This document shows positions 13,195-35,377 of a DNA stretch of 64,000 nt, piece after piece (position 1 is the first letter of the stretch; each line of letters opens with the position of its first letter). The translations under genes were made by a program, and so were the position numbers. This stretch comes from a phage. The notes beneath the pieces were generated by a model. It was given only the letters and a program-made list of their open reading frames with translations, was not told where the DNA came from and ran no database searches. The DNA is taken from sequence record PX441839.1; one strand, written 5' to 3'.

Positions 13195-13226
13195 AAAAAG
13201 GCTCCCGAATGGGAGCCTTTTCTTTT
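13195..13226. terminator. Bidirectional terminator between convergent transcription units
   Basis: GGCTCCC-GAAT-GGGAGCC hairpin flanked by an A-run and a T-run; lies between the last plus-strand fibre gene and the last minus-strand gene. Confidence 0.6.
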
Positions 13227-14944: not shown

Positions 14945-15301
14945 TTAAATACTTTTCTCAAAGCCTTCCGCTTGGAAGTAGGCTGTTTTCTCAGAGGTCT
15001 CAATTGAGAAACTTACCTGGGACAGTTCAGCAGCCAAGTGAGCAGCAATCTGTTTTGCCATGTGGACAATCATACCTTCTTCTTTTGGGAAGCGAGGGTA
15101 CTGGATAAGTCGCACAGTAAACCCCTTTTCCATCCCTCCCGTATAGATATAGTCAGTTTTAGTAAGCTGAATACATCCTCGCTCCGCATGGGTAAGGTAC
15201 TTCCTAAGAATATGACGAGCAAAGTCAATATCCCCTGCCATGTGGATCGTCACATAGAATGTTTTCTCGGTTGCCTTTTGAACGAAATTTACATTAGCCA
15301 C
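14945..15301 (-). CDS. Hypothetical protein
   Basis: 118 aa ORF, tight spacing. Confidence 0.4.
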   Translation of the reverse strand: MANVNFVQKATEKTFYVTIHMAGDIDFARHILRKYLTHAERGCIQLTKTDYIYTGGMEKGFTVRLIQYPRFPKEEGMIVHMAKQIAAHLAAELSQVSFSIETSEKTAYFQAEGFEKSI

Positions 15302-15685
15302 TTATTTTCTCCCCTTCTTACGGTGATAAACTCCACGTTTGGACAGAGGAATTTCCTCTGCATCTCTTCCATCAACACCATCTTCACCAGGTTCACCTTG
15401 AGGACCCATTGGACCTGCTGGTCCCATTGGCCCCATAGGTCCTACAGGTCCAGTGACAACACGAATGTCTTTAGGTTTGTACAGAGAATAACCCAAGCAT
15501 CCAAACCAACCGATAAGTGTAATTACGCTCGGAGGCAAAAGGAAGAAGATAACAGTAAAGACAGAGATCATCCACTTATTCCTGTGATCCTTCTTCCATG
15601 CGATAATTATTGGGGAAAAACTAATTGCCAATAAAATTAACAGAAAAACAAGACCGAGAGTGATGGCAGCTTCTGCAATTATCAT
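15302..15685 (-). CDS. Membrane protein with collagen-like G-X-Y repeat
   Basis: N-terminal hydrophobic segments, then GPVGPMGPMGPAGPMGPQGEPGEDG. Confidence 0.45.
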   Translation of the reverse strand: MIIAEAAITLGLVFLLILLAISFSPIIIAWKKDHRNKWMISVFTVIFFLLPPSVITLIGWFGCLGYSLYKPKDIRVVTGPVGPMGPMGPAGPMGPQGEPGEDGVDGRDAEEIPLSKRGVYHRKKGRK

Positions 15686-15999
15686 TAACGAAGACCCTCT
15701 TTGATTTTAAGTTCAATCAACCCTGCATCCAGGGTATACATGTATCCAGTGTTATCCCGAAAGTAACAAAGGACTCCCTTGGGTTCGGATTTTCTTACTA
15801 TGACCCGACCCCTTTGATAACCAGGTTGTGTTTCACAAACCTTGTACAGTTCCTGAATACGGGAAGGCAGAATAGTATGAGAATTCTTGTACTTATCCTC
15901 ACCTTCTTCCAGACACCCTGTCAAAAGTACAGAGCACAGTAGTGCAATAATTAACTTTTTCATGCGCAGAATGCCGCCACAATTAGTGAAAAGGGCCAC
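15685..15999 (-). CDS. Putative lipoprotein
   Basis: Signal peptide MKKLIIALLCSVLLTGC with lipobox LTGC. Confidence 0.5.
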   Translation of the reverse strand: MALFTNCGGILRMKKLIIALLCSVLLTGCLEEGEDKYKNSHTILPSRIQELYKVCETQPGYQRGRVIVRKSEPKGVLCYFRDNTGYMYTLDAGLIELKIKEGLR

Positions 16000-16138
16000 A
16001 CGATCCCGAAAATTACAGAGGGTCCTTTGTCAATTCTGCAAAATCGACGATAGAATAGTCGCCCTGCTCCAACACTGATCAGGATATAGAGTAAAGATAC
16101 AAGTAACTCAAGTGCATATAATGTTAAAAAATTCATAA

Positions 16139-16516
16139 TCAGATTCCTTTTCTTTCTCTGCGTTTACGGCGGATATCCTCTTCAACCTCTACCTCAGCCT
16201 TGTCGATAATCTCGTATACGGACGGAACTGATTCAGATGGGGAAAACATCTTGTGCAGGTTCCTGACCATCATTACCAACTTCCCCCTTACCTTGAAATC
16301 ATATCTCCAAGATCTAAAGTGGAAGCAATCATGACGCCATTGGAACATATAGCATATCTCTTTTGCACGGTTACGAGTAACACCCAGTAAGTTTGCAAAC
16401 TCTCCATGAGGATCTCCATTTGGATCTCCAAGAATATATGCTGTTGCCCAATGCTTCTTCGCCAAGTTGTACTCTTCAACCGTCATGTTTACTTTCGTGT
16501 TCATATTGCCCTCCAA
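16139..16516 (-). CDS. Hypothetical protein
   Basis: 125 aa ORF. Confidence 0.4.
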   Translation of the reverse strand: MEGNMNTKVNMTVEEYNLAKKHWATAYILGDPNGDPHGEFANLLGVTRNRAKEICYMFQWRHDCFHFRSWRYDFKVRGKLVMMVRNLHKMFSPSESVPSVYEIIDKAEVEVEEDIRRKRRERKGI

Positions 16517-16568
16517 GATACTCTACTCCAAGATTATGGGGAGTATAACGCCCCTTGTCAACAATTAC

Positions 16569-17165
16569 TTAATCACAACTGCAAGATGACCCTGAGTCAC
16601 AGGAAGAATAGCTGTCTGAACCACCGTAGCTGGACGAAGAACTATACGATGAAGTGTAGTTGCAATTGTCATCACTGCGGTAAGAACTTGAACCAGACGT
16701 CACGATTGCAGTGGAAATACCTGCAACGGTGGCGATATTCAAAATATCATCACTATCCTGGTGAACTGGACGAGATGGACTTGAAACCGACATTGGACGA
16801 CCATTTGATCGTGACCGCTTAATGAACTCTTTCTTCGCCTTAGGTGGTAATTTACGACCTTTGGCGTAAGCTGGGAGTTCAACTTCTTTCAGTTTATCAT
16901 TCAGAGTCTTACCCTGTTTAATTACAACTTTGGAATCATCCTGTACGATCTCCGCGACCTTGACAGTGTTCTCTTTGGTATTGACTGCTGTGACCACCTC
17001 TTTGTCACCCAGAGGCTTGTCGATAGGTTTGGTTCCCACTTCAACCATTCGAACATTAACATTGGTAGGTTGTTTACTGATGTATTCATCAACCTTCACT
17101 TCGTCAATTTCAACCTTGGAGGAAGAGAACAGACCTTTAAACCAAGATACCAGCTTCTTAAACAT
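16569..17165 (-). CDS. Hypothetical protein with Ser/Cys-rich C-terminus
   Basis: 198 aa; C-terminal SSYSSSSSYGGSDSYSSCDSGSSCSCD. Confidence 0.4.
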   Translation of the reverse strand: MFKKLVSWFKGLFSSSKVEIDEVKVDEYISKQPTNVNVRMVEVGTKPIDKPLGDKEVVTAVNTKENTVKVAEIVQDDSKVVIKQGKTLNDKLKEVELPAYAKGRKLPPKAKKEFIKRSRSNGRPMSVSSPSRPVHQDSDDILNIATVAGISTAIVTSGSSSYRSDDNCNYTSSYSSSSSYGGSDSYSSCDSGSSCSCD

Positions 17166-17175
17166 ATTGTTTCTC

Positions 17176-17397
17176 CTATTCGCTAATGACTACTAGTTGA
17201 GTAATTCCGATCAGACCTGCACTAAACAGATCGTCAATTGCAGCTTGCCCGTCAAGACCTTCTTCATAACATTCTTTGAGGGTATCATTGTCAAGCAGCC
17301 ATTTGTTTGCCACGTCCTCTGACGTGAAGACCAAATCTTGCTGACCAATATCCCATTCAGACCAAATAGAGTACATTATTTTGCACTCCCGTTCCAC
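17176..17397 (-). CDS. Hypothetical acidic protein
   Basis: 73 aa ORF. Confidence 0.35.
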   Translation of the reverse strand: MERECKIMYSIWSEWDIGQQDLVFTSEDVANKWLLDNDTLKECYEEGLDGQAAIDDLFSAGLIGITQLVVISE

Positions 17398-17570
17398 ACT
17401 GCGTCCACAACACCCTTGAGTCCAACACTATCTACAGCTTGGATAAGCTCAACAGCGCCCCAAATCATCACACCAATACCTACAACGGTCATCGCAAAAA
17501 CAATACCGATACCGATCTTGATTGCATTTTTTGTCCGGTTAAAGGATTTGTTGAAATCTGAACTAATCAT
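17376..17570 (-). CDS. Small membrane protein
   Basis: 64 aa, central hydrophobic stretch IGIGIVFAMTVVGIGVMIWGAV. Confidence 0.35.
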   Translation of the reverse strand: MISSDFNKSFNRTKNAIKIGIGIVFAMTVVGIGVMIWGAVELIQAVDSVGLKGVVDAVWNGSAK

Positions 17571-17900
17571 TTAATATCTCCCATTATCAAATTCATTTCT
17601 TGCCCATTGGACTGCCTTTATGAGCACATCTCCGTGACAAGGTTGCGGTGAGCAGAAGCAGACTAGGTCTTTGCCCTCCAACTCAAGAAGATCACCAATT
17701 GTTATTCTACCTTCTTTTATCTGAGTCCACAACCACTTTCTGTATCTTTCGATTGTGGCCCCTCTCGGCTCATCATTTGACAATTTGAAAGGGTTGGCAA
17801 ATCTCGATTGGAGTAGCCCGAAGTGGGGCATTCTCCTCCCGATATAAACTGCATTCTCTGGTATGACCTTCCCTAAGTGGTAGAAGTTCAATACCTTCAT
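17571..17900 (-). CDS. DUF4326-like protein
   Basis: C-terminal LVCFCSPQPCHGDVL motif as I recall for DUF4326; start moved to the internal ATG (MKVLNF) because the longer ORF overlaps the upstream gene. Confidence 0.35.
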   Translation of the reverse strand: MKVLNFYHLGKVIPENAVYIGRRMPHFGLLQSRFANPFKLSNDEPRGATIERYRKWLWTQIKEGRITIGDLLELEGKDLVCFCSPQPCHGDVLIKAVQWARNEFDNGRY

Positions 17901-17901
17901 A

Positions 17902-18180
17902 TTACTTACCTTCACGGTCCTTGTCAATAATTTTCTGTGCCAGATCGGATAGCTTGTTGCCAATGAATGGCATCTTGTCCAGCAATTTTGTGGATTTTCT
18001 CTCCAGATCATAAAATAGGTCAGTGGCCTTGTCGAAGATCCATCCTCCAAACTTACCGATATAAACAAAGACAAGGGCCAGTGTCCTATGGGGATTAATA
18101 ACCAGCAAGGCAAAGAGTAAACCTGCCATCTTACTGTGGAATTTGACCTCTTTCCAAAAATGTTTTAACTTAGTCACCAT
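17902..18180 (-). CDS. Small membrane protein
   Basis: Hydrophobic segment LLFALLVINP...LALVFVYIG; start uncertain. Confidence 0.3.
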   Translation of the reverse strand: MVTKLKHFWKEVKFHSKMAGLLFALLVINPHRTLALVFVYIGKFGGWIFDKATDLFYDLERKSTKLLDKMPFIGNKLSDLAQKIIDKDREGK

Positions 18181-18571
18181 ATAGTTGAGTCTCCGGAATA
18201 ATATCTTCAATAGAGTCGTCCCAAACAACACAGCCATAATGTCGGTACGGGTTCTCTCCGTAAGTGTTTGGCGACACCCAAACTTTGTTTATGTCTGCTG
18301 TAACAAGGTTTCCCTTATCTACGTGCATGTAGAAGTGACGGTAAACGGGGATTGGGGTGATTTCCCCTTTCCCGCTATCACAGCACCAAACTTGATGCTC
18401 TTTCAGTTCAACGGGATCTTCATCTTCGTCAATGGACAGTTGTAGGTCAGGGTAGAATCGTAAAATTCGCATTTCTGCATCTTCTACGGACAACCCATCC
18501 AATGAGTTCAGAAACTCCTCGAAATCATCCATTGCTTTTTCATTAATGGATGGACACTGTTCACTCATCAT
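18170..18571 (-). CDS. Hypothetical protein
   Basis: ORF with internal ATG start chosen to limit overlap. Confidence 0.35.
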   Translation of the reverse strand: MMSEQCPSINEKAMDDFEEFLNSLDGLSVEDAEMRILRFYPDLQLSIDEDEDPVELKEHQVWCCDSGKGEITPIPVYRHFYMHVDKGNLVTADINKVWVSPNTYGENPYRHYGCVVWDDSIEDIIPETQLYGD

Positions 18572-19001
18572 CTTCTTCCTTGCTCCCCTCGACCTTCGTG
18601 AATGAATACTCTGTACGTACAACCTCTTTGGAGGTCATGTTTACATAGTAGGCGTACTCCATCCAGTCAATCTCTTCTGGATTGCCGTGTTTTCCGCCGC
18701 CGTACCAATATGTCCAAGATACCCAACCGAACGGTGTTTCACGGGCAACTTGATCACTTTCATAATGGCGACTCATTTCTGGGAGAAGATTGGTTACAAT
18801 TCCTGAGCTTCGGAAATCGTATTGAACTTCCCACAGGCTATCTCCATCCACACCCTCAAACTCATTATCTTCAACCTTATCCCAGAGTTCGGCAATAGCT
18901 TCTTGGTTCATATTACGGATATCTTCCCGTGATACAATACCCTCTAAAACCTCTGCAAGAATTTCTGCACGGATTGCGTATTCAGCGGTAACTTTACTCA
19001 T
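18561..19001 (-). CDS. Hypothetical acidic protein
   Basis: 146 aa ORF. Confidence 0.4.
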   Translation of the reverse strand: MSKVTAEYAIRAEILAEVLEGIVSREDIRNMNQEAIAELWDKVEDNEFEGVDGDSLWEVQYDFRSSGIVTNLLPEMSRHYESDQVARETPFGWVSWTYWYGGGKHGNPEEIDWMEYAYYVNMTSKEVVRTEYSFTKVEGSKEEDDE

Positions 19002-19014
19002 TTTATCTCCTCAA

Positions 19015-19236
19015 TTAAAAGTCAAACTGCTTTGTCAACTTCGCCATAGATTTCTTGTATGAGGGGTGCAGTCGATAATTACACCCCTTCTCCACACACC
19101 AGTCGCTCGCCTTGTTTCTAAGAGCAATTAAGCCGCACCAAGCGCAAACTTGCTTACCTGCATTTTTGTCCAGATAGAAGTGGTGACGCTCGTAATGGTA
19201 TTCTTCCTTCTGGCTCTTGTCAATCTTTTTTACCAT
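19015..19236 (-). CDS. Small Cys-containing protein (possible zinc binding)
   Basis: 73 aa with CAWCG and CVEKGC. Confidence 0.35.
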   Translation of the reverse strand: MVKKIDKSQKEEYHYERHHFYLDKNAGKQVCAWCGLIALRNKASDWCVEKGCNYRLHPSYKKSMAKLTKQFDF

Positions 19237-19919
19237 CCGAATTTCTCCGTTGGAAGGTAAACCTGTTGTTGGTTACGAAGAACCAAGCGTAGGTCTGTTT
19301 GAGGCTCAAGGTAGTCCGTCTCGGTCACACGAATAAGGTATCGCCAACCTGGAGCACGGGCTTGCTGTGCCGTGTGGATTTCCCACCAATCCCATTCAAC
19401 AACCTGACCATCAGGTGCGTTGTAAGCGTCAATAAACCCTTGCTGTTCCATCTCTGCGACTTGAGAACTTATACCCGCATAAAGGTTTGGAACATCAACG
19501 TTAAGGTTCAAGTTACGACTGTGGATAAACTTCGTAGGGCAATCCCCACCCACAACCAAAAGATGATACCTCGGCGAAGATGCTTGCTCCTGCATGTGGA
19601 TATTGGGTTCACCTTTTGCAGGGGACATCTTTCCACCACGAGGGACACCATCCGTATGCCAACCAGGGATGGCGGGAATCATACCCGGCATGAGCATATG
19701 GGTCTTTACGTCCACCACAATATGTTTTCGATCACCGTGCAGATTCATGGCTTGTAATGCTGCTCTTGTTAAGTCCCCTCCGAAACGAAAGGCGTCATCA
19801 AAAGATGCATTCCAAAGACCTTGTGTGTTCTTAATATCATCCTGTGAGGGTTTTTCAATTTTGTTTCCGAATTTTACTACACCACGGTTAAATTTCATCT
19901 TTTCCTCCAAATATCGCAC
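19230..19919 (-). CDS. Possible 2OG-Fe(II) dioxygenase-like protein
   Basis: HxD-type motif in GWHTDG with later His residues (EIHTAQ); weak motif-only call. Confidence 0.3.
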   Translation of the reverse strand: MRYLEEKMKFNRGVVKFGNKIEKPSQDDIKNTQGLWNASFDDAFRFGGDLTRAALQAMNLHGDRKHIVVDVKTHMLMPGMIPAIPGWHTDGVPRGGKMSPAKGEPNIHMQEQASSPRYHLLVVGGDCPTKFIHSRNLNLNVDVPNLYAGISSQVAEMEQQGFIDAYNAPDGQVVEWDWWEIHTAQQARAPGWRYLIRVTETDYLEPQTDLRLVLRNQQQVYLPTEKFGW

Positions 19920-20121
19920 AAGCTAGTGATTTATCTATGTGGCCCATTACATTGTGGCCTTCTTTCTTTAAGCATTTGCTGCATATTCTGTAGATATTAG
20001 ACTCTTTTGACGAAGGTGTCAAGTGGGCAGGTGTGTCATGCTCCCTTACAAAATGGACAACTTCGGTTATATGCCATTGGTGGCTACATACTTTTTTCTT
20101 TTGACGTTTAAAGGGCCACAT
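19888..20121 (-). CDS. Small Cys/His-rich protein
   Basis: CSHQWH and CSKC motifs; start ambiguous. Confidence 0.3.
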   Translation of the reverse strand: MWPFKRQKKKVCSHQWHITEVVHFVREHDTPAHLTPSSKESNIYRICSKCLKKEGHNVMGHIDKSLACAIFGGKDEI

Positions 20122-20122
20122 A

Positions 20123-20308
20123 TTAACCACCTATCAACTTAAAGCTGCCATATACAGACGTTTCGAAGACAACCTGAGTTTGAACACCCTCATCGTTGAT
20201 TACTTCAACCATCTTCTTGTTTGGAGACATGACGAGGATCTTGTATTCCTTACCAGTTGTGAATAATCCCCAATCTGCATAGTGGCTGTTGGTGCATAAA
20301 AGCTTCAT
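20123..20308 (-). CDS. Hypothetical small protein
   Basis: 61 aa ORF. Confidence 0.3.
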   Translation of the reverse strand: MKLLCTNSHYADWGLFTTGKEYKILVMSPNKKMVEVINDEGVQTQVVFETSVYGSFKLIGG

Positions 20309-20312
20309 ATTC

Positions 20313-20531
20313 TTATACTCCTGGAGGTAAAGTTACGCCGCCTACGCTACGGCAGTTTCCCATACACTGGGTATTTGAACGTGCCAGTTGTTCTTCCAGT
20401 TCGTCATTCTTGTGCTGTTGGTACGCCATGAATTGTAACATTTCCCACATCTTGTCCATTAGGTGGTCTTTCTTTAAAGTCTTCCAGTATTTACGGAAGG
20501 CCACTTCATCCTCTTTGGTTAATGGTTTCAT
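20313..20531 (-). CDS. Hypothetical small protein
   Basis: 72 aa ORF. Confidence 0.35.
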   Translation of the reverse strand: MKPLTKEDEVAFRKYWKTLKKDHLMDKMWEMLQFMAYQQHKNDELEEQLARSNTQCMGNCRSVGGVTLPPGV

Positions 20532-20610
20532 TTGTTATCCCTCTTTCGTTTGGTATGGGATCATTATGAGGGTTCTGAGCAAGGAAGTCAACACCTTTCT
20601 GCAAATAAAA

Positions 20611-20630
20611 AGGCCACCCGAAGGTGGCCT
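20611..20630. terminator. Hairpin terminator (A-run and T-run flanked)
   Basis: AGGCCACC-CGAA-GGTGGCCT perfect 8-bp stem. Confidence 0.55.
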
Positions 20631-20635
20631 TAATT

Positions 20636-21028
20636 TTATTCCAGTTCTGCCAATTGTTTGCGGATTTCTTCCGGAGTTAATTTCTGTAACTCACGGGCCT
20701 CTGCATCTGCCAATTGCTGCAACAGAGCTTCACGCTTCTGTCGTTTTGCCGTTTCTTCCTGCTGTTTGGCAATCTCCTCTTTGCGGACCTTGATCACATG
20801 TTTAACAATTTCCATCGCCAGTTCAAGGCGTTCGTCCACAGAAGTCTTGTCATCAACAAAAGATTTTTCCCCTGCGGCCTTGATTTGCTTGTCAACAGAT
20901 ACTGCGATGGAGTTCAGGCTAACATTGTTACCTTTCAGCGGAAGTTGCCATAAATCTTCAACGGTGATCAGGCCACGCTGGGTTTCAAAACGCAGTTTTG
21001 CACGGGATGCTTTTTCAAAAATAGACAT
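20636..21028 (-). CDS. Coiled-coil protein
   Basis: 130 aa, charged heptad-like sequence (EEIAKQQEETAKRQKREALLQQLADAEARELQKL). Confidence 0.4.
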   Translation of the reverse strand: MSIFEKASRAKLRFETQRGLITVEDLWQLPLKGNNVSLNSIAVSVDKQIKAAGEKSFVDDKTSVDERLELAMEIVKHVIKVRKEEIAKQQEETAKRQKREALLQQLADAEARELQKLTPEEIRKQLAELE

Positions 21029-29801: not shown

Positions 29802-30631
29802 CAAAGTTTAGCAGGTTCGTTAATCCTGCCCACACCATTACGTGTTGCCATACGGTTTCCCGTAGGATCGGACTATATCACCACCCTTTTCAGGGTGCTC
29901 CCCATTTCGACGCCACTTGGTCGCCTACGCCTCTCGGCTAGTCTCTGAACGTTAAGACCACGTATACTTCTCGGAAATATGCTTCCACTGCCGACGCTGC
30001 TTAATGGCTCGTACTGTTGCATAGGGGAATCCCATGTCGCGTACCTCTGCCTGGCTCATTCCGCTTTCAAGAAGCTGGCAAATGGTCATCACTTCGTCTT
30101 CTGTGAGGGCACTATTAGCATTGTTGATACCTTCCGCGCTGCGACAGTTGTGGCGATAGGCGTTCTCTATGTTTTTGCCTCTCGTAACCCACTGTAGGTT
30201 GTCTTTGTGGTTATTCCTTTTATCGGGCCACTTGTGATCAACCTCTGGAAGATTGTTCGGATTGGGAACAAAACATTCTGCCACCAAAACATGGACCGCC
30301 TTTGTCGTCGCCTTTTTGTTAAGGTAAAGACTGACAATTGCATACCCTCTTCCATTATCAACATGCTTCATAGGTTTACCTCGACGACCTATAATGGTCC
30401 CGTCCTCGTAAACTTTATATCCGAAATAGTCTTTGTACTCCACGTAGTCCTCTTCGCTGCTGATTAACATAGCTGCACTTTAGTTTATTATTAACCCAGT
30501 GTCAACCTTAGCCTTCCAGCAATTAAAGGAGTTTTCGATGTAGGTTGCCCTACAAAGCCACAATGTTACTTATGGTAATAGATAATACGACGAACTCCCT
30601 CGTCATACCATCCCTTCTTGACCAGTTGCCA
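29802..30631 (-). mobile_element. Group I intron in the DNA polymerase gene (boundaries approximate, about +/-6 nt)
   Basis: On the transcribed strand: P-like AATTGCTGGAAGG, R-like GTTCAGAGACTAGCC, S-like GATATAGTCC, terminal G before exon 2; contains an HNH ORF. Confidence 0.55.
29952..30470 (-). CDS. HNH homing endonuclease (intron-encoded)
   Basis: VHVLVAECFVPNPNNLPEVDHKWPDKRNNHKDNLQWVT His-Me finger signature; paralog of the ORF in the second intron. Confidence 0.65.
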   Translation of the reverse strand: MLISSEEDYVEYKDYFGYKVYEDGTIIGRRGKPMKHVDNGRGYAIVSLYLNKKATTKAVHVLVAECFVPNPNNLPEVDHKWPDKRNNHKDNLQWVTRGKNIENAYRHNCRSAEGINNANSALTEDEVMTICQLLESGMSQAEVRDMGFPYATVRAIKQRRQWKHISEKYTWS

Positions 30632-34663: not shown

Positions 34664-35377
34664 TTATTGGTTGTGTAGGAAAACTGCCTTTGCCAAACCC
34701 CTTGGGGTAAGGGAGCGTATCAGTTTTGTACGTGCCGATTTACCACCTAACTTATTATGCTGCTCAGAATATCCCTGTGCGACACCGACAGGCGACTTCA
34801 CTGGCATCTTGAACCCTTTCCCCGTCCAAAGGCATGTCTTCTTAGGATAAGCGTCACGAGCCTTAATGTACTCAGGGAAAAATGGATTCACATCATCCTC
34901 CGGTAAGTAACCACCATACTCATATGGGTGGAACTGGTAGTCAGATTTTCTCCATTTTGTTGCCAAAACACTTACAGGGTTTTCTATCATGTAAGGGCAG
35001 TCGAAAACAAACTCTGCCAAGTATGCCGGAATTTTTGCAGTACGTACAGCATTTATTTGGAAAAATGGATCTTTTGCTGCTTTTCTTTTAAAGTGGGCTG
35101 CACCGCTCACCGCCATATCTGTGCAGGGAGGGAAGGCAAAGATAATATCTGGGTTTGGGATTCCCAAACTTTCAACATTCTCTGCCCACTCCATGTCAAT
35201 CCACGCATCCACATACGTCACGTTCGGGTGATTAACTCTTACATTATCATACAATCCGTGGTCAGCCTCCTTAGCGTTGAAGCAGAAGCACAGGTGACCA
35301 GCTTTTGCCCAATCAAAGACCATTGCCCCAGATCCATCAAACAAAGACCAAACAACCTTTTTAGACATGCTTTTCAA
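34664..35377 (-). CDS. DNA (cytosine-5)-methyltransferase, small
   Basis: Motif I LFDGSGAM (FxGxG), motif IV FPPC (catalytic PC), motif VI ENP in canonical order. Confidence 0.55.
   Translation of the reverse strand: MKSMSKKVVWSLFDGSGAMVFDWAKAGHLCFCFNAKEADHGLYDNVRVNHPNVTYVDAWIDMEWAENVESLGIPNPDIIFAFPPCTDMAVSGAAHFKRKAAKDPFFQINAVRTAKIPAYLAEFVFDCPYMIENPVSVLATKWRKSDYQFHPYEYGGYLPEDDVNPFFPEYIKARDAYPKKTCLWTGKGFKMPVKSPVGVAQGYSEQHNKLGGKSARTKLIRSLTPRGLAKAVFLHNQ

What the first reader, a model, noticed from the sequence alone, without database searches (positions are those of the whole stretch)
17571..17900. DUF4326-like Cys/His motif protein among early genes
The C-terminal LVCFCSPQPCHGD motif recalls a domain of unknown function. 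The ORF-track version is extended upstream by an overlap with the neighbouring gene, so the true product is probably about 109 aa.
Basis: partly seen in the sequence, partly recalled or inferred. Interest (0 to 1): 0.25.

Follow-up and report, generated by a model that had tools for sequence, protein, structure and literature searches.

The report
Small DUF4326 phage early protein
This is a real 109-residue phage gene from the large, widespread DUF4326 family, whose biochemical function has never been tested; it is an ordinary member, notable only because the closest GenBank phage record does not annotate it.

Summary
Window 17571-17900 (minus strand) encodes a 109-aa protein that matches Pfam DUF4326 (PF14216) at E=1.7e-22, 80 bits against a cutoff of 25. 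It carries the family motif C81-x-C83-x4-C88-H89.

The short start (ATG at 17900) is supported by three things:
- a GAAGG ribosome-binding site;
- homologues that begin with the same MKVLNFY residues;
- a syntenic 109-aa, 79%-identical orthologue in Cronobacter phage CR3 (CR3_043, 'similar to NrdA.1').

The window is 99.6% identical to Salmonella phage SSBI34 over the 6-kb stretch compared. In that record the ORF is intact but unannotated.

Relatives are often fused to NADAR, Macro, SLOG/DprA-like and PIF1 domains. Stand-alone copies sit beside ribonucleotide reductase, RNA ligase and replication genes.

My best reading, which is inferred and not shown: a stand-alone Cys/His enzyme that processes ADP-ribose-derived or ribose-phosphate or nucleic-acid-end substrates early in infection. 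This is an ordinary finding of low interest.

The parts
17571..17900 (-). CDS of the 109-aa stand-alone DUF4326 protein (stop codon included)
   Evidence: Searches give the ORF and translation. Pfam PF14216, E=1.7e-22, 80.3 bits against cutoff 25, residues 10-94. PHROG 464; 79% identical to the syntenic 109-aa CR3_043.
17909..17913 (-). Shine-Dalgarno-like GAAGG, 8 nt upstream of the ATG; it lies inside the 3' end of the upstream ORF
   Evidence: Read directly. The minus strand reads 5'-GACCGTGAAGGTAAGTAAT-ATG.
17634..17660 (-). Codons for the family signature C81-F-C83-S-P85-Q-P-C88-H89. It spans the end of strand beta3 and the start of the C-terminal helix, and is the presumed active or metal site.
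   Evidence: C81, C83, C88 and H89 are invariant in A1 (52 sequences) and in A3 (93 representatives at 31-61% identity to the query). C-x-C-x4-C-H accounts for 215 of 245 motif instances; x5 occurs in 10 and x8 in 20.
17790..17846 (-). Codons for the N-terminal conserved motif Y19-I-G21-R22 ... N36-P37-F38 (family consensus YIGRxSKWGNPF). Here it carries a subfamily insertion, RMPHFGLLQ.
   Evidence: N36 and P37 are invariant; Y19, G21 and R22 are conserved in at least 90% of sequences.
17376..17570 (-). Downstream 64-aa hydrophobic ORF (DUF7248). Its ATG directly abuts the DUF4326 stop, so it is probably in the same transcript. No functional link is shown.
   Evidence: ORF; PF23906, E=1.2e-16. 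It is absent at this position in phage CR3.
17902..18237 (-). Upstream ORF (111 aa from the first ATG; annotated as 92 aa in SSBI34). Its stop lies 1 nt before the DUF4326 ATG. It has no family match.

Best explanation
The gene encodes a stand-alone, single-domain DUF4326 protein. It is made from the leftward early/middle transcription block of an SSBI34-like Vequintavirinae phage.

Shown here:
- It is a compact alpha/beta domain with the order beta1, beta2, long loop, alpha1, alpha2, beta3, loop, alpha3.
- Three invariant cysteines and a histidine (C81, C83, C88, H89) lie at the beta3/alpha3 junction.
- A conserved YIGR...NPF loop and basic residues (R22, R46, K77) lie nearby in the sequence.

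Inferred:
- This cluster is the catalytic centre of a thiol/histidine enzyme.
- The enzyme acts on a phosphorylated ribose or ADP-ribose-derived moiety. That could be a free nucleotide signal or breakdown product, or a modified or phosphorylated nucleic-acid end.
- It carries out a step that, in larger relatives, is physically coupled to NADAR (N-glycosidase), Macro (ADP-ribose-phosphate/ester hydrolase) and SLOG/LOG-like (nucleotide-binding/phosphoribohydrolase) domains.
- In the phage it would act alone, early in infection. It would either neutralise host NAD+/ADP-ribose-based immunity or condition nucleotides or nucleic-acid ends for replication.

The exact substrate and chemistry are unknown.
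For: - Family membership.
- Confident model: pLDDT 96.7.
- Invariant residues across 93 diverse representatives, and near-universal CxC-x4-CH.
- My own domain scans of long relatives found these fusions: NADAR-DUF4326 in P0218, P0233, P0237 and P0240; NADAR-NADAR-DUF4326 in P0234; Macro-NADAR-DUF4326 in P0226; SLOG (YAcAr/DprA-like)-DUF4326 in P0216, P0273, P0244, P0253, P0333 and P0348; PIF1 helicase in P0354.
- The same fusions and an ADP-ribose-phosphate-processing role were proposed independently in PMC7824862 and PMC9503650.
- Amoeba-virus homologues of the anti-Avs protein ORF83 carry a C-terminal DUF4326 (bioRxiv 10.1101/2025.06.06.658234).
- Stand-alone copies sit in nucleotide or nucleic-acid modules: between td/nrdA.2 and nrdA in T4-type RB32; between nrdD and nrdG in ph0011; near a Gly_radical gene; next to T4-type RNA ligase and close to one in a Pakpunavirus; near SSB, RNase H, Rad51 and SNF2 genes.
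- Link to DUF488, the sister group named in the literature. One relative's DUF4326 C-terminal motif also scores above the Pfam cutoffs for DUF488-N3a (28.2 against 27) and DUF488 (23.6 against 22.2). Sub-threshold DUF488-N3a hits occur in 3 of 52 and 4 of 93 members. A YeaO (DUF488) model has the same order of secondary-structure elements.
Against: - No experiment exists for any family member in the papers I could search.
- The window gene has no NADAR, Macro or SLOG partner among the neighbours I scanned.
- There is no conserved neighbour across phages, so the context evidence is diffuse.
- The loop between C83 and C88 tolerates a 4-residue insertion in close, presumably functional relatives. 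It also lacks the arginine of a CX5R phosphate cradle. This argues against a canonical PTP/rhodanese-type P-loop.
- Profile-profile comparisons to NADAR and to YeaO-type DUF488 are not significant.
Confidence: 0.45

Rival explanations
1. Structural zinc (or other metal) module. C81, C83, C88 and H89 are the four ligands of one metal ion that staples the beta3/alpha3 junction. The protein acts by binding a nucleic acid or a host or phage protein and has no catalytic activity.
For: - There are exactly four invariant Cys/His residues.
- The spacer between the CxC and CH pairs varies (4, 5 or 8 residues). Variable spacers are typical of metal knuckles and atypical of catalytic phosphate cradles.
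- In YeaO-type DUF488, all three positions that line up by spacing with the Cys residues are non-Cys together (Y95, A97, N103), by my own visual comparison of the A4 consensus with the query. hhalign did not confirm that alignment.
- A few members give weak zinc-ribbon Pfam hits. These are probably noise.
Against: - Adjacent residues (C88-H89) rarely both bind one metal ion.
- Other invariant or near-invariant polar residues away from the Cys cluster (N36-P37, R22, R46, K77) suggest a ligand pocket.
- Repeated fusion to enzymatic ADP-ribose or nucleotide-processing domains is more typical of an enzyme.
- The literature reads the domain as enzymatic.
- The side-chain geometry of the model could not be inspected with these tools.
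Confidence: 0.2
2. Accessory factor of deoxynucleotide synthesis. A thiol-redox or nucleotide-handling partner of ribonucleotide reductase, for example a reductant or maturation factor, or a small nucleotide phosphatase that shapes dNTP pools.
For: DUF4326 genes sit directly at RNR genes in unrelated phages:
- nrdA.1 overlaps the start of nrdA in T4-type RB32.
- The gene lies between nrdD/glycyl-radical piece and nrdG in Asteriusvirus ph0011.
- It lies near a Gly_radical gene in another jumbo-phage contig.
- It lies near dNMP kinase in JSF12.
Three invariant cysteines could be redox active.
Against: - In this window and its relatives (CR3, phi92, N4-type G7C) no RNR gene is nearby.
- The fold is not thioredoxin-like: no such hit appears.
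- Fusions are to NADAR, Macro, SLOG and helicase domains. None of the 20 long proteins scanned had an RNR or redoxin domain.
Confidence: 0.12
3. A miniaturised, divergent relative of the NADAR fold that cleaves an N-glycosidic (ribosyl-base or ADP-ribosyl-base) bond itself, using Cys/His in place of NADAR's acidic residues.
For: - There is a local profile match of the N-terminal strand, VLNFY against VINFY (P=0.002).
- By my own reading of the consensus sequences, the spacing of LLxxxGxxLV(C/E) before the conserved loop is the same.
Against: - Foldseek finds nothing.
- No member gives a Pfam NADAR hit over its DUF4326 region.
- hhalign probabilities are 1-14%. Forward scores of 16-19 against 9.9 for the reversed profiles are not significant.
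- Frequent NADAR-DUF4326 fusions suggest complementary activities, not duplicated ones.
Confidence: 0.1
4. Not a gene: a chance ORF in the shadow of neighbouring genes. This would explain why it is missing from the SSBI34 annotation.
For: No CDS is annotated here in MZ520832.
Against: - Pfam E=1.7e-22.
- There are thousands of homologues.
- The ORF is intact in SSBI34 with one conservative change.
- The syntenic orthologue is annotated in CR3.
- The gene packs tightly, with its own ribosome-binding site.
Confidence: 0.01

Closest known systems
Pfam DUF4326 (PF14216) / PHROG 464; named members are T4-type NrdA.1, N4-type gp12, phi92 gp202 and CR3_043
   Same: It matches the profile over its full length. 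It has the same YIGR...NPF and LVCxCxPxxCHGD motifs, the same size as stand-alone members, and the same genomic niche in early or DNA-metabolism modules of large lytic phages.
   Different: Only subfamily details differ. It has a 9-residue insertion (RMPHFGLLQ) between GR and the NPF motif, shared with rV5/phi92-like phages. Its nearest protein in the 5.8-billion-sequence database is 77% identical; the nearest I found anywhere is CR3_043 at 79%.
DUF488 (PF04343, including DUF488-N3a; E. coli YeaO). [quoted passage not shown]
   Same: The order of secondary-structure elements is the same: beta, beta, long loop, helices, beta, loop, helix. The C-terminal strand-loop-helix motif LVCxC...CH(R/G) cross-matches the DUF488 models in some members.
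   Different: The window protein itself gives no DUF488 hit. hhalign against a YeaO-type alignment is not significant. YeaO lacks the cysteines.
NADAR domain (PF08719; YbiA N-glycosidase; reverses guanine ADP-ribosylation)
   Different: There is no significant sequence or profile similarity. The NADAR invariants (E48, H49, E125, D130, W133 in YbiA) have no demonstrated counterparts here. This protein is about 50 residues shorter.
Cys-based phosphatases and rhodaneses (PTP/DSP/Cdc25/rhodanese; CX5R loop)
   Same: A conserved Cys sits at the C-terminal end of a beta-strand, followed by a loop and the N-terminus of a helix. The literature assigns DUF4326 to this superfamily.

Membership tests
Pfam DUF4326 (PF14216) | Profile HMM score above the curated gathering cutoff | tested here: met
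   80.3 bits against a cutoff of 25, E=1.7e-22, residues 10-94 on profile positions 5-81 of 82.
Pfam DUF4326 (PF14216) | C-terminal signature L-V-C-x-C-x-P-x-x-C-H-G-D at the strand/helix junction | tested here: met
   The motif is LVCFCSPQPCHGD, residues 79-91. C81, C83, C88 and H89 are invariant in A1 and A3. 215 of 245 motif instances have the same x4 spacing.
Pfam DUF4326 (PF14216) | N-terminal Y-I-G-R ... N-P-F motif | tested here: met
   Y19-I-G21-R22 and N36-P37-F38 are present. N36 and P37 are invariant.
Rhodanese-phosphatase superfamily (RapZ-C/DUF488/DUF4326 clade of the literature) | Structural similarity to solved PTP, DSP, rhodanese or RapZ-C domains | tested here: not met
Rhodanese-phosphatase superfamily (RapZ-C/DUF488/DUF4326 clade of the literature) | Catalytic Cys at the end of a core beta-strand, followed by a fixed-length phosphate-binding loop (CX5R or similar) and a helix N-terminus | tested here: inconclusive
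   Cys at a strand end followed by a helix start is present. However, there is no Arg, and the loop length is 4, 5 or 8 residues.
Rhodanese-phosphatase superfamily (RapZ-C/DUF488/DUF4326 clade of the literature) | Detectable sequence link to DUF488 | tested here: inconclusive
   P0238's DUF4326 C-terminus scores above the cutoffs of DUF488-N3a and DUF488. There are 3 of 52 and 4 of 93 sub-threshold hits. The secondary-structure order matches YeaO. hhalign against a YeaO alignment gives probability 0.3%, no better than the reversed control.
Rhodanese-phosphatase superfamily (RapZ-C/DUF488/DUF4326 clade of the literature) | Phosphatase, phosphotransfer or thiotransfer activity | not testable with these tools
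   This needs enzymology. No experimental report was found.
NADAR (PF08719) | Profile match and conserved catalytic residues | tested here: not met
   There is no NADAR hit over the DUF4326 region in 52 or 93 members. hhalign probability is at most 14%, over 12 columns only.
NADAR (PF08719) | Shared three-dimensional fold | tested here: inconclusive
Ribonucleotide reductase NrdA-like (label of PHROG 24867 and of several GenBank records) | Ribonucleotide reductase large-subunit domains | tested here: not met
   The protein is 109 aa and hits only DUF4326 in Pfam. The label traces to the positional T4 gene name nrdA.1, a 95-aa ORF upstream of nrdA.
Zinc-binding Cys/His module | Four conserved metal ligands in tetrahedral geometry | not testable with these tools
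   Four invariant Cys/His residues exist. The model coordinates could not be inspected and no metal analysis is possible.

The most novel reading that the evidence does not exclude
DUF4326 is not a phosphatase-type domain. It is instead a stripped-down structural relative of NADAR that uses a Cys/His centre to remove ribosyl or ADP-ribosyl groups from bases or nucleic acids. On this reading, T4 NrdA.1, N4 gp12 and this protein form a widespread, unrecognised class of phage enzymes that reverse ADP-ribosylation or nucleotide-signal-based host immunity.
Probability: 0.1. Interest if true: 0.55.

Novelty: new member of a known kind. Interest (0 to 1): 0.2.

Why it matters
The gene on its own adds little. 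It is one more member of a catalogued domain of unknown function whose likely role has already been discussed computationally.

Its value is practical in two ways:
- The gene is missing from the closest deposited genome (SSBI34).
- Several database labels for this family ('NrdA-like ribonucleotide reductase', 'DNA repair protein') are naming artefacts.

The family as a whole is worth an experiment. It occurs in about 4% of sequenced phage records, including T4-like and N4-like model phages, and also in archaeal and giant viruses. It is repeatedly welded to ADP-ribose-processing domains. It has a confident predicted structure with no clear solved counterpart. No published biochemistry exists for it. 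A small soluble 109-aa stand-alone member like this one would be a convenient test protein.

Tried and rejected
- Sequence searches of the PDB with the protein and with the family profile gave nothing meaningful. YeaO also has no solved relative.
- NCBIfam and PADLOC gave no match.
- Foldseek against the PDB gave no hit better than E=1.5. The afdb50 library was unavailable. BFVD returned only other DUF4326 proteins.
- Profile-profile tests for homology to NADAR used a YbiA alignment (A2) and a version enriched with seven divergent NADAR domains cut from fusion proteins. Tests against YeaO-type DUF488 used alignment A4. All were non-significant, and forward scores were little or no better than the reversed-profile controls.
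- The YeaO search returned only close relatives that lack the cysteines, so it was a poor probe for the 'active' DUF488 clade.
- The key classification paper (Burroughs & Aravind 2023) could not be read. What I say about its content is from memory.
- Literature searches for PF14216 and nrdA.1 gave no functional data.
- Pfam scans of 20 neighbouring or larger ORFs in the window found no NAD+/ADP-ribose, RNR or RNA-ligase gene nearby. They found only DUF7248, HNH, DNA polymerase A, a weak C5-methylase hit and a DnaB-like helicase.
- The total count of sigma-70-like sites in 13-24 kb equals the shuffled expectation (18 against 17.9). Promoter evidence therefore rests only on placement and strand bias.

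Full report
**Observation.** On the minus strand, an ATG at 17900 opens a 109-codon frame that ends with TAA at 17573-17571. The product is MKVLNFYHLGKVIPENAVYIGRRMPHFGLLQSRFANPFKLSNDEPRGATIERYRKWLWTQIKEGRITIGDLLELEGKDLVCFCSPQPCHGDVLIKAVQWARNEFDNGRY. The mechanical ORF list extends the frame to a TTG at 18113, giving 180 aa. That extension overlaps the upstream ORF 17902-18237 in another frame.

The short form is the real one, for four reasons:
- The upstream stop (17904-17902) is one base from the ATG.
- GAAGG at 17913-17909 lies 8 nt upstream.
- Most homologues start at the equivalent M-x-V-L-N.
- The syntenic orthologue in Cronobacter phage CR3 (CR3_043, annotated 'similar to NrdA.1') is also 109 aa, 79% identical without gaps, and starts at the same residue.

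The downstream 64-aa ORF starts at 17570, directly after the stop. The three genes are therefore packed like an operon.

**Identity.**
- Pfam DUF4326 (PF14216) matches at E=1.7e-22, 80.3 bits against a cutoff of 25.
- PHROG 464 ('unknown function') matches at 2.3e-38.
- NCBIfam, PADLOC and sequence searches of the PDB give nothing.

**Source and annotation.** The 6-kb stretch compared (window 15000-21000) is 99.6% identical to Salmonella phage SSBI34 (MZ520832, Vequintavirinae, 141 kb). In that record the interval holding this gene has no CDS. The ORF is nevertheless intact there, with a single A35S change. The gene lies in a long minus-strand block. The block runs from a DnaB-like helicase and a family-A DNA polymerase, through many small unknown genes, to a strong hairpin terminator at 13195-13222 that faces the tail-fibre genes. 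The best sigma-70-like sites sit in the intergenic gaps of this strand. The total count of such sites, however, is not above the shuffled expectation. 'Early gene' is therefore a reasonable inference and is not shown.

**Family size and spread.**
- The exact protein is absent from the 5.8-billion-sequence collection. The best hit there is 77% identical.
- A profile of 52 relatives finds 25,106 clusters (50% identity) at E<=1e-3 and 10,375 at E<=1e-10.
- tblastn finds the family in 1,985 of 50,697 phage records. These include T4-type nrdA.1, N4-type gp12 (G7C), phi92 gp202, jumbo phages, T5-like vibriophages and a mycobacteriophage.
- A structural search of viral models adds haloarchaeal viruses and giant viruses: Marseille-, Pitho-, Pandora- and Mimivirus.

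The labels 'ribonucleotide reductase NrdA-like' (PHROG 24867 and several GenBank records) and 'DNA repair protein' (G7C gp12) are artefacts. NrdA.1 is simply the small ORF upstream of nrdA in T4-type genomes.

**Anatomy.** AlphaFold2 with the 52-sequence alignment gives a very confident model, with pLDDT 96.7 and pTM 0.87. Its elements are:
- beta1, residues 3-5
- beta2, residues 17-19
- a long loop, residues 20-45
- alpha1, residues 46-62
- alpha2, residues 68-72
- beta3, residues 78-81
- a loop, residues 82-88
- alpha3, residues 89-105

Across 93 representatives that are 31-61% identical to the query, the invariant residues are N36, P37, L79, C81, C83, P85, C88 and H89. Y19, G21, R22, R46, L74 and G90 are conserved in at least 90%. 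The signature is C-x-C-x4-C-H in 215 of 245 instances. It is x5 in 10 and x8 in 20, and the x8 forms belong to close relatives of this very protein. The conserved centre is thus the end of beta3 plus the first turn of alpha3, and the loop between them can vary in length.

**Relation to known folds.**
- Foldseek against the PDB finds nothing.
- Profile-profile comparisons with a NADAR alignment give only a local match of the first strand (VLNFY against VINFY, probability 14%) or nothing. This also holds for a version enriched with divergent NADAR domains. Forward scores of 16-19 compare with 9.9 for reversed controls.
- Published comparative analyses place DUF4326 in the rhodanese-phosphatase superfamily and predict that it processes terminal phosphates on the ribose of ADP-ribose or its breakdown products (PMC9503650; PMC7824862). 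From memory, the 2023 classification paper groups it with RapZ-C and DUF488. That paper is not held.

My tests give partial support for the DUF488 link only:
- One relative's DUF4326 C-terminal motif exceeds the Pfam cutoffs of DUF488-N3a and DUF488.
- Seven other members give sub-threshold DUF488-N3a hits, and this is the most frequent secondary family.
- A model of E. coli YeaO (DUF488) has the same order of secondary-structure elements.
- hhalign against YeaO-type sequences, which lack the cysteines, is not significant.

The missing arginine and the variable loop length do not fit a canonical CX5R cradle.

**Functional clues.** I scanned 20 long relatives myself.
- Six are NADAR-DUF4326. 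One of these has two NADARs and one has Macro-NADAR.
- Six carry SLOG-type domains (YAcAr/DprA-like).
- One is fused to a PIF1 helicase.
- Several proteins are tandem DUF4326 repeats.

This reproduces the published fusions. A preprint notes that amoeba-virus homologues of the anti-Avs protein ORF83, a LOG-like protein, carry a C-terminal DUF4326.

Stand-alone copies lie in nucleotide or nucleic-acid modules:
- at nrdA in T4-type phages;
- between nrdD and nrdG in ph0011;
- near a glycyl-radical gene;
- adjacent to a T4-type RNA ligase, and close to one in a Pakpunavirus;
- near dNMP kinase;
- near SSB, RNase H, Rad51 and SNF2 genes.

No single neighbour is conserved. In this window the neighbours are unknowns plus a DUF7248 membrane peptide.

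**Interpretation.** The most likely reading (about 0.45) is a stand-alone Cys/His enzyme. It would act on a ribose-phosphate or ADP-ribose-derived group, either on free nucleotides or on nucleic-acid ends. It would be used early in infection against NAD+/ADP-ribose-based host defences or for conditioning nucleotides or nucleic-acid ends. Family membership, fold, conserved centre and fusion partners are shown. Substrate, chemistry and biological role are inferred.

The rivals are:
- a structural zinc site with a binding function (0.2), favoured by the four invariant ligands and the variable spacer;
- an RNR or dNTP accessory (0.12), favoured by recurrent RNR adjacency elsewhere but not here;
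- a non-gene (0.01), refuted by the homology evidence.

**Verdict.** The finding is real and correctly interpreted, but ordinary. It is a new, unannotated member of a known and already discussed domain family whose function has not been tested experimentally.

Noticed in passing
window 17571-17900 (-); MZ520832.1 84503-84829: The closest GenBank record (Salmonella phage SSBI34) has no CDS annotated over this intact, conserved gene. The orthologue in phage CR3 (CR3_043) is annotated.
   Followed up: yes
PHROG 24867; GenBank records such as NC_047994.1, PV037719.1, NC_070850.1; NC_015933.1 gp12: DUF4326 proteins are labelled 'ribonucleotide reductase NrdA-like' or 'DNA repair protein'. The first label is propagated from the positional T4 gene name nrdA.1. 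Neither label is supported by any domain match.
   Followed up: partly
window 17376-17570 (-): A 64-aa hydrophobic ORF matches DUF7248 (E=1.2e-16) and abuts the DUF4326 stop codon. It is absent from the syntenic position in CR3.
   Followed up: partly
window 16569-17165 (-): A 198-aa ORF has a striking Ser/Tyr/Cys-rich low-complexity C-terminal tail (...SSSYRSDDNCNYTSSYSSSSSYGGSDSYSSCDSGSSCSCD). It has no Pfam match.
   Followed up: no
window 13195-13222 and 20610-20631; minus-strand sites 21092-21064, 20591-20563, 20022-19994, 16561-16533, 14941-14912: There are two perfect bidirectional GC-rich hairpin terminators. Several near-consensus sigma-70-like promoters sit exactly in intergenic gaps of the minus-strand block. 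This is consistent with host-polymerase early transcription units, although the total promoter-like count equals the shuffled expectation.
   Followed up: partly
P0234, P0226, P0213, P0354 (metagenomic relatives): Unusual architectures appear: NADAR-NADAR-DUF4326, Macro-NADAR-DUF4326, three tandem DUF4326 domains in one 352-aa protein, and DUF4326 at the N-terminus of a 2,126-aa PIF1-type helicase protein.
   Followed up: partly
L012 1619-2979; L017 1391-3773: In two unrelated phage contexts the DUF4326 gene lies next to, or close to, a T4-type RNA ligase gene. This hints at a possible role in processing RNA ends.
   Followed up: no
window 34664-35377 (-) and 29952-30470 (-): The replication region contains a weak C5 cytosine-methylase-like ORF (E=4e-4, below the cutoff) and an HNH endonuclease-like ORF next to the DNA polymerase gene.
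   Followed up: no
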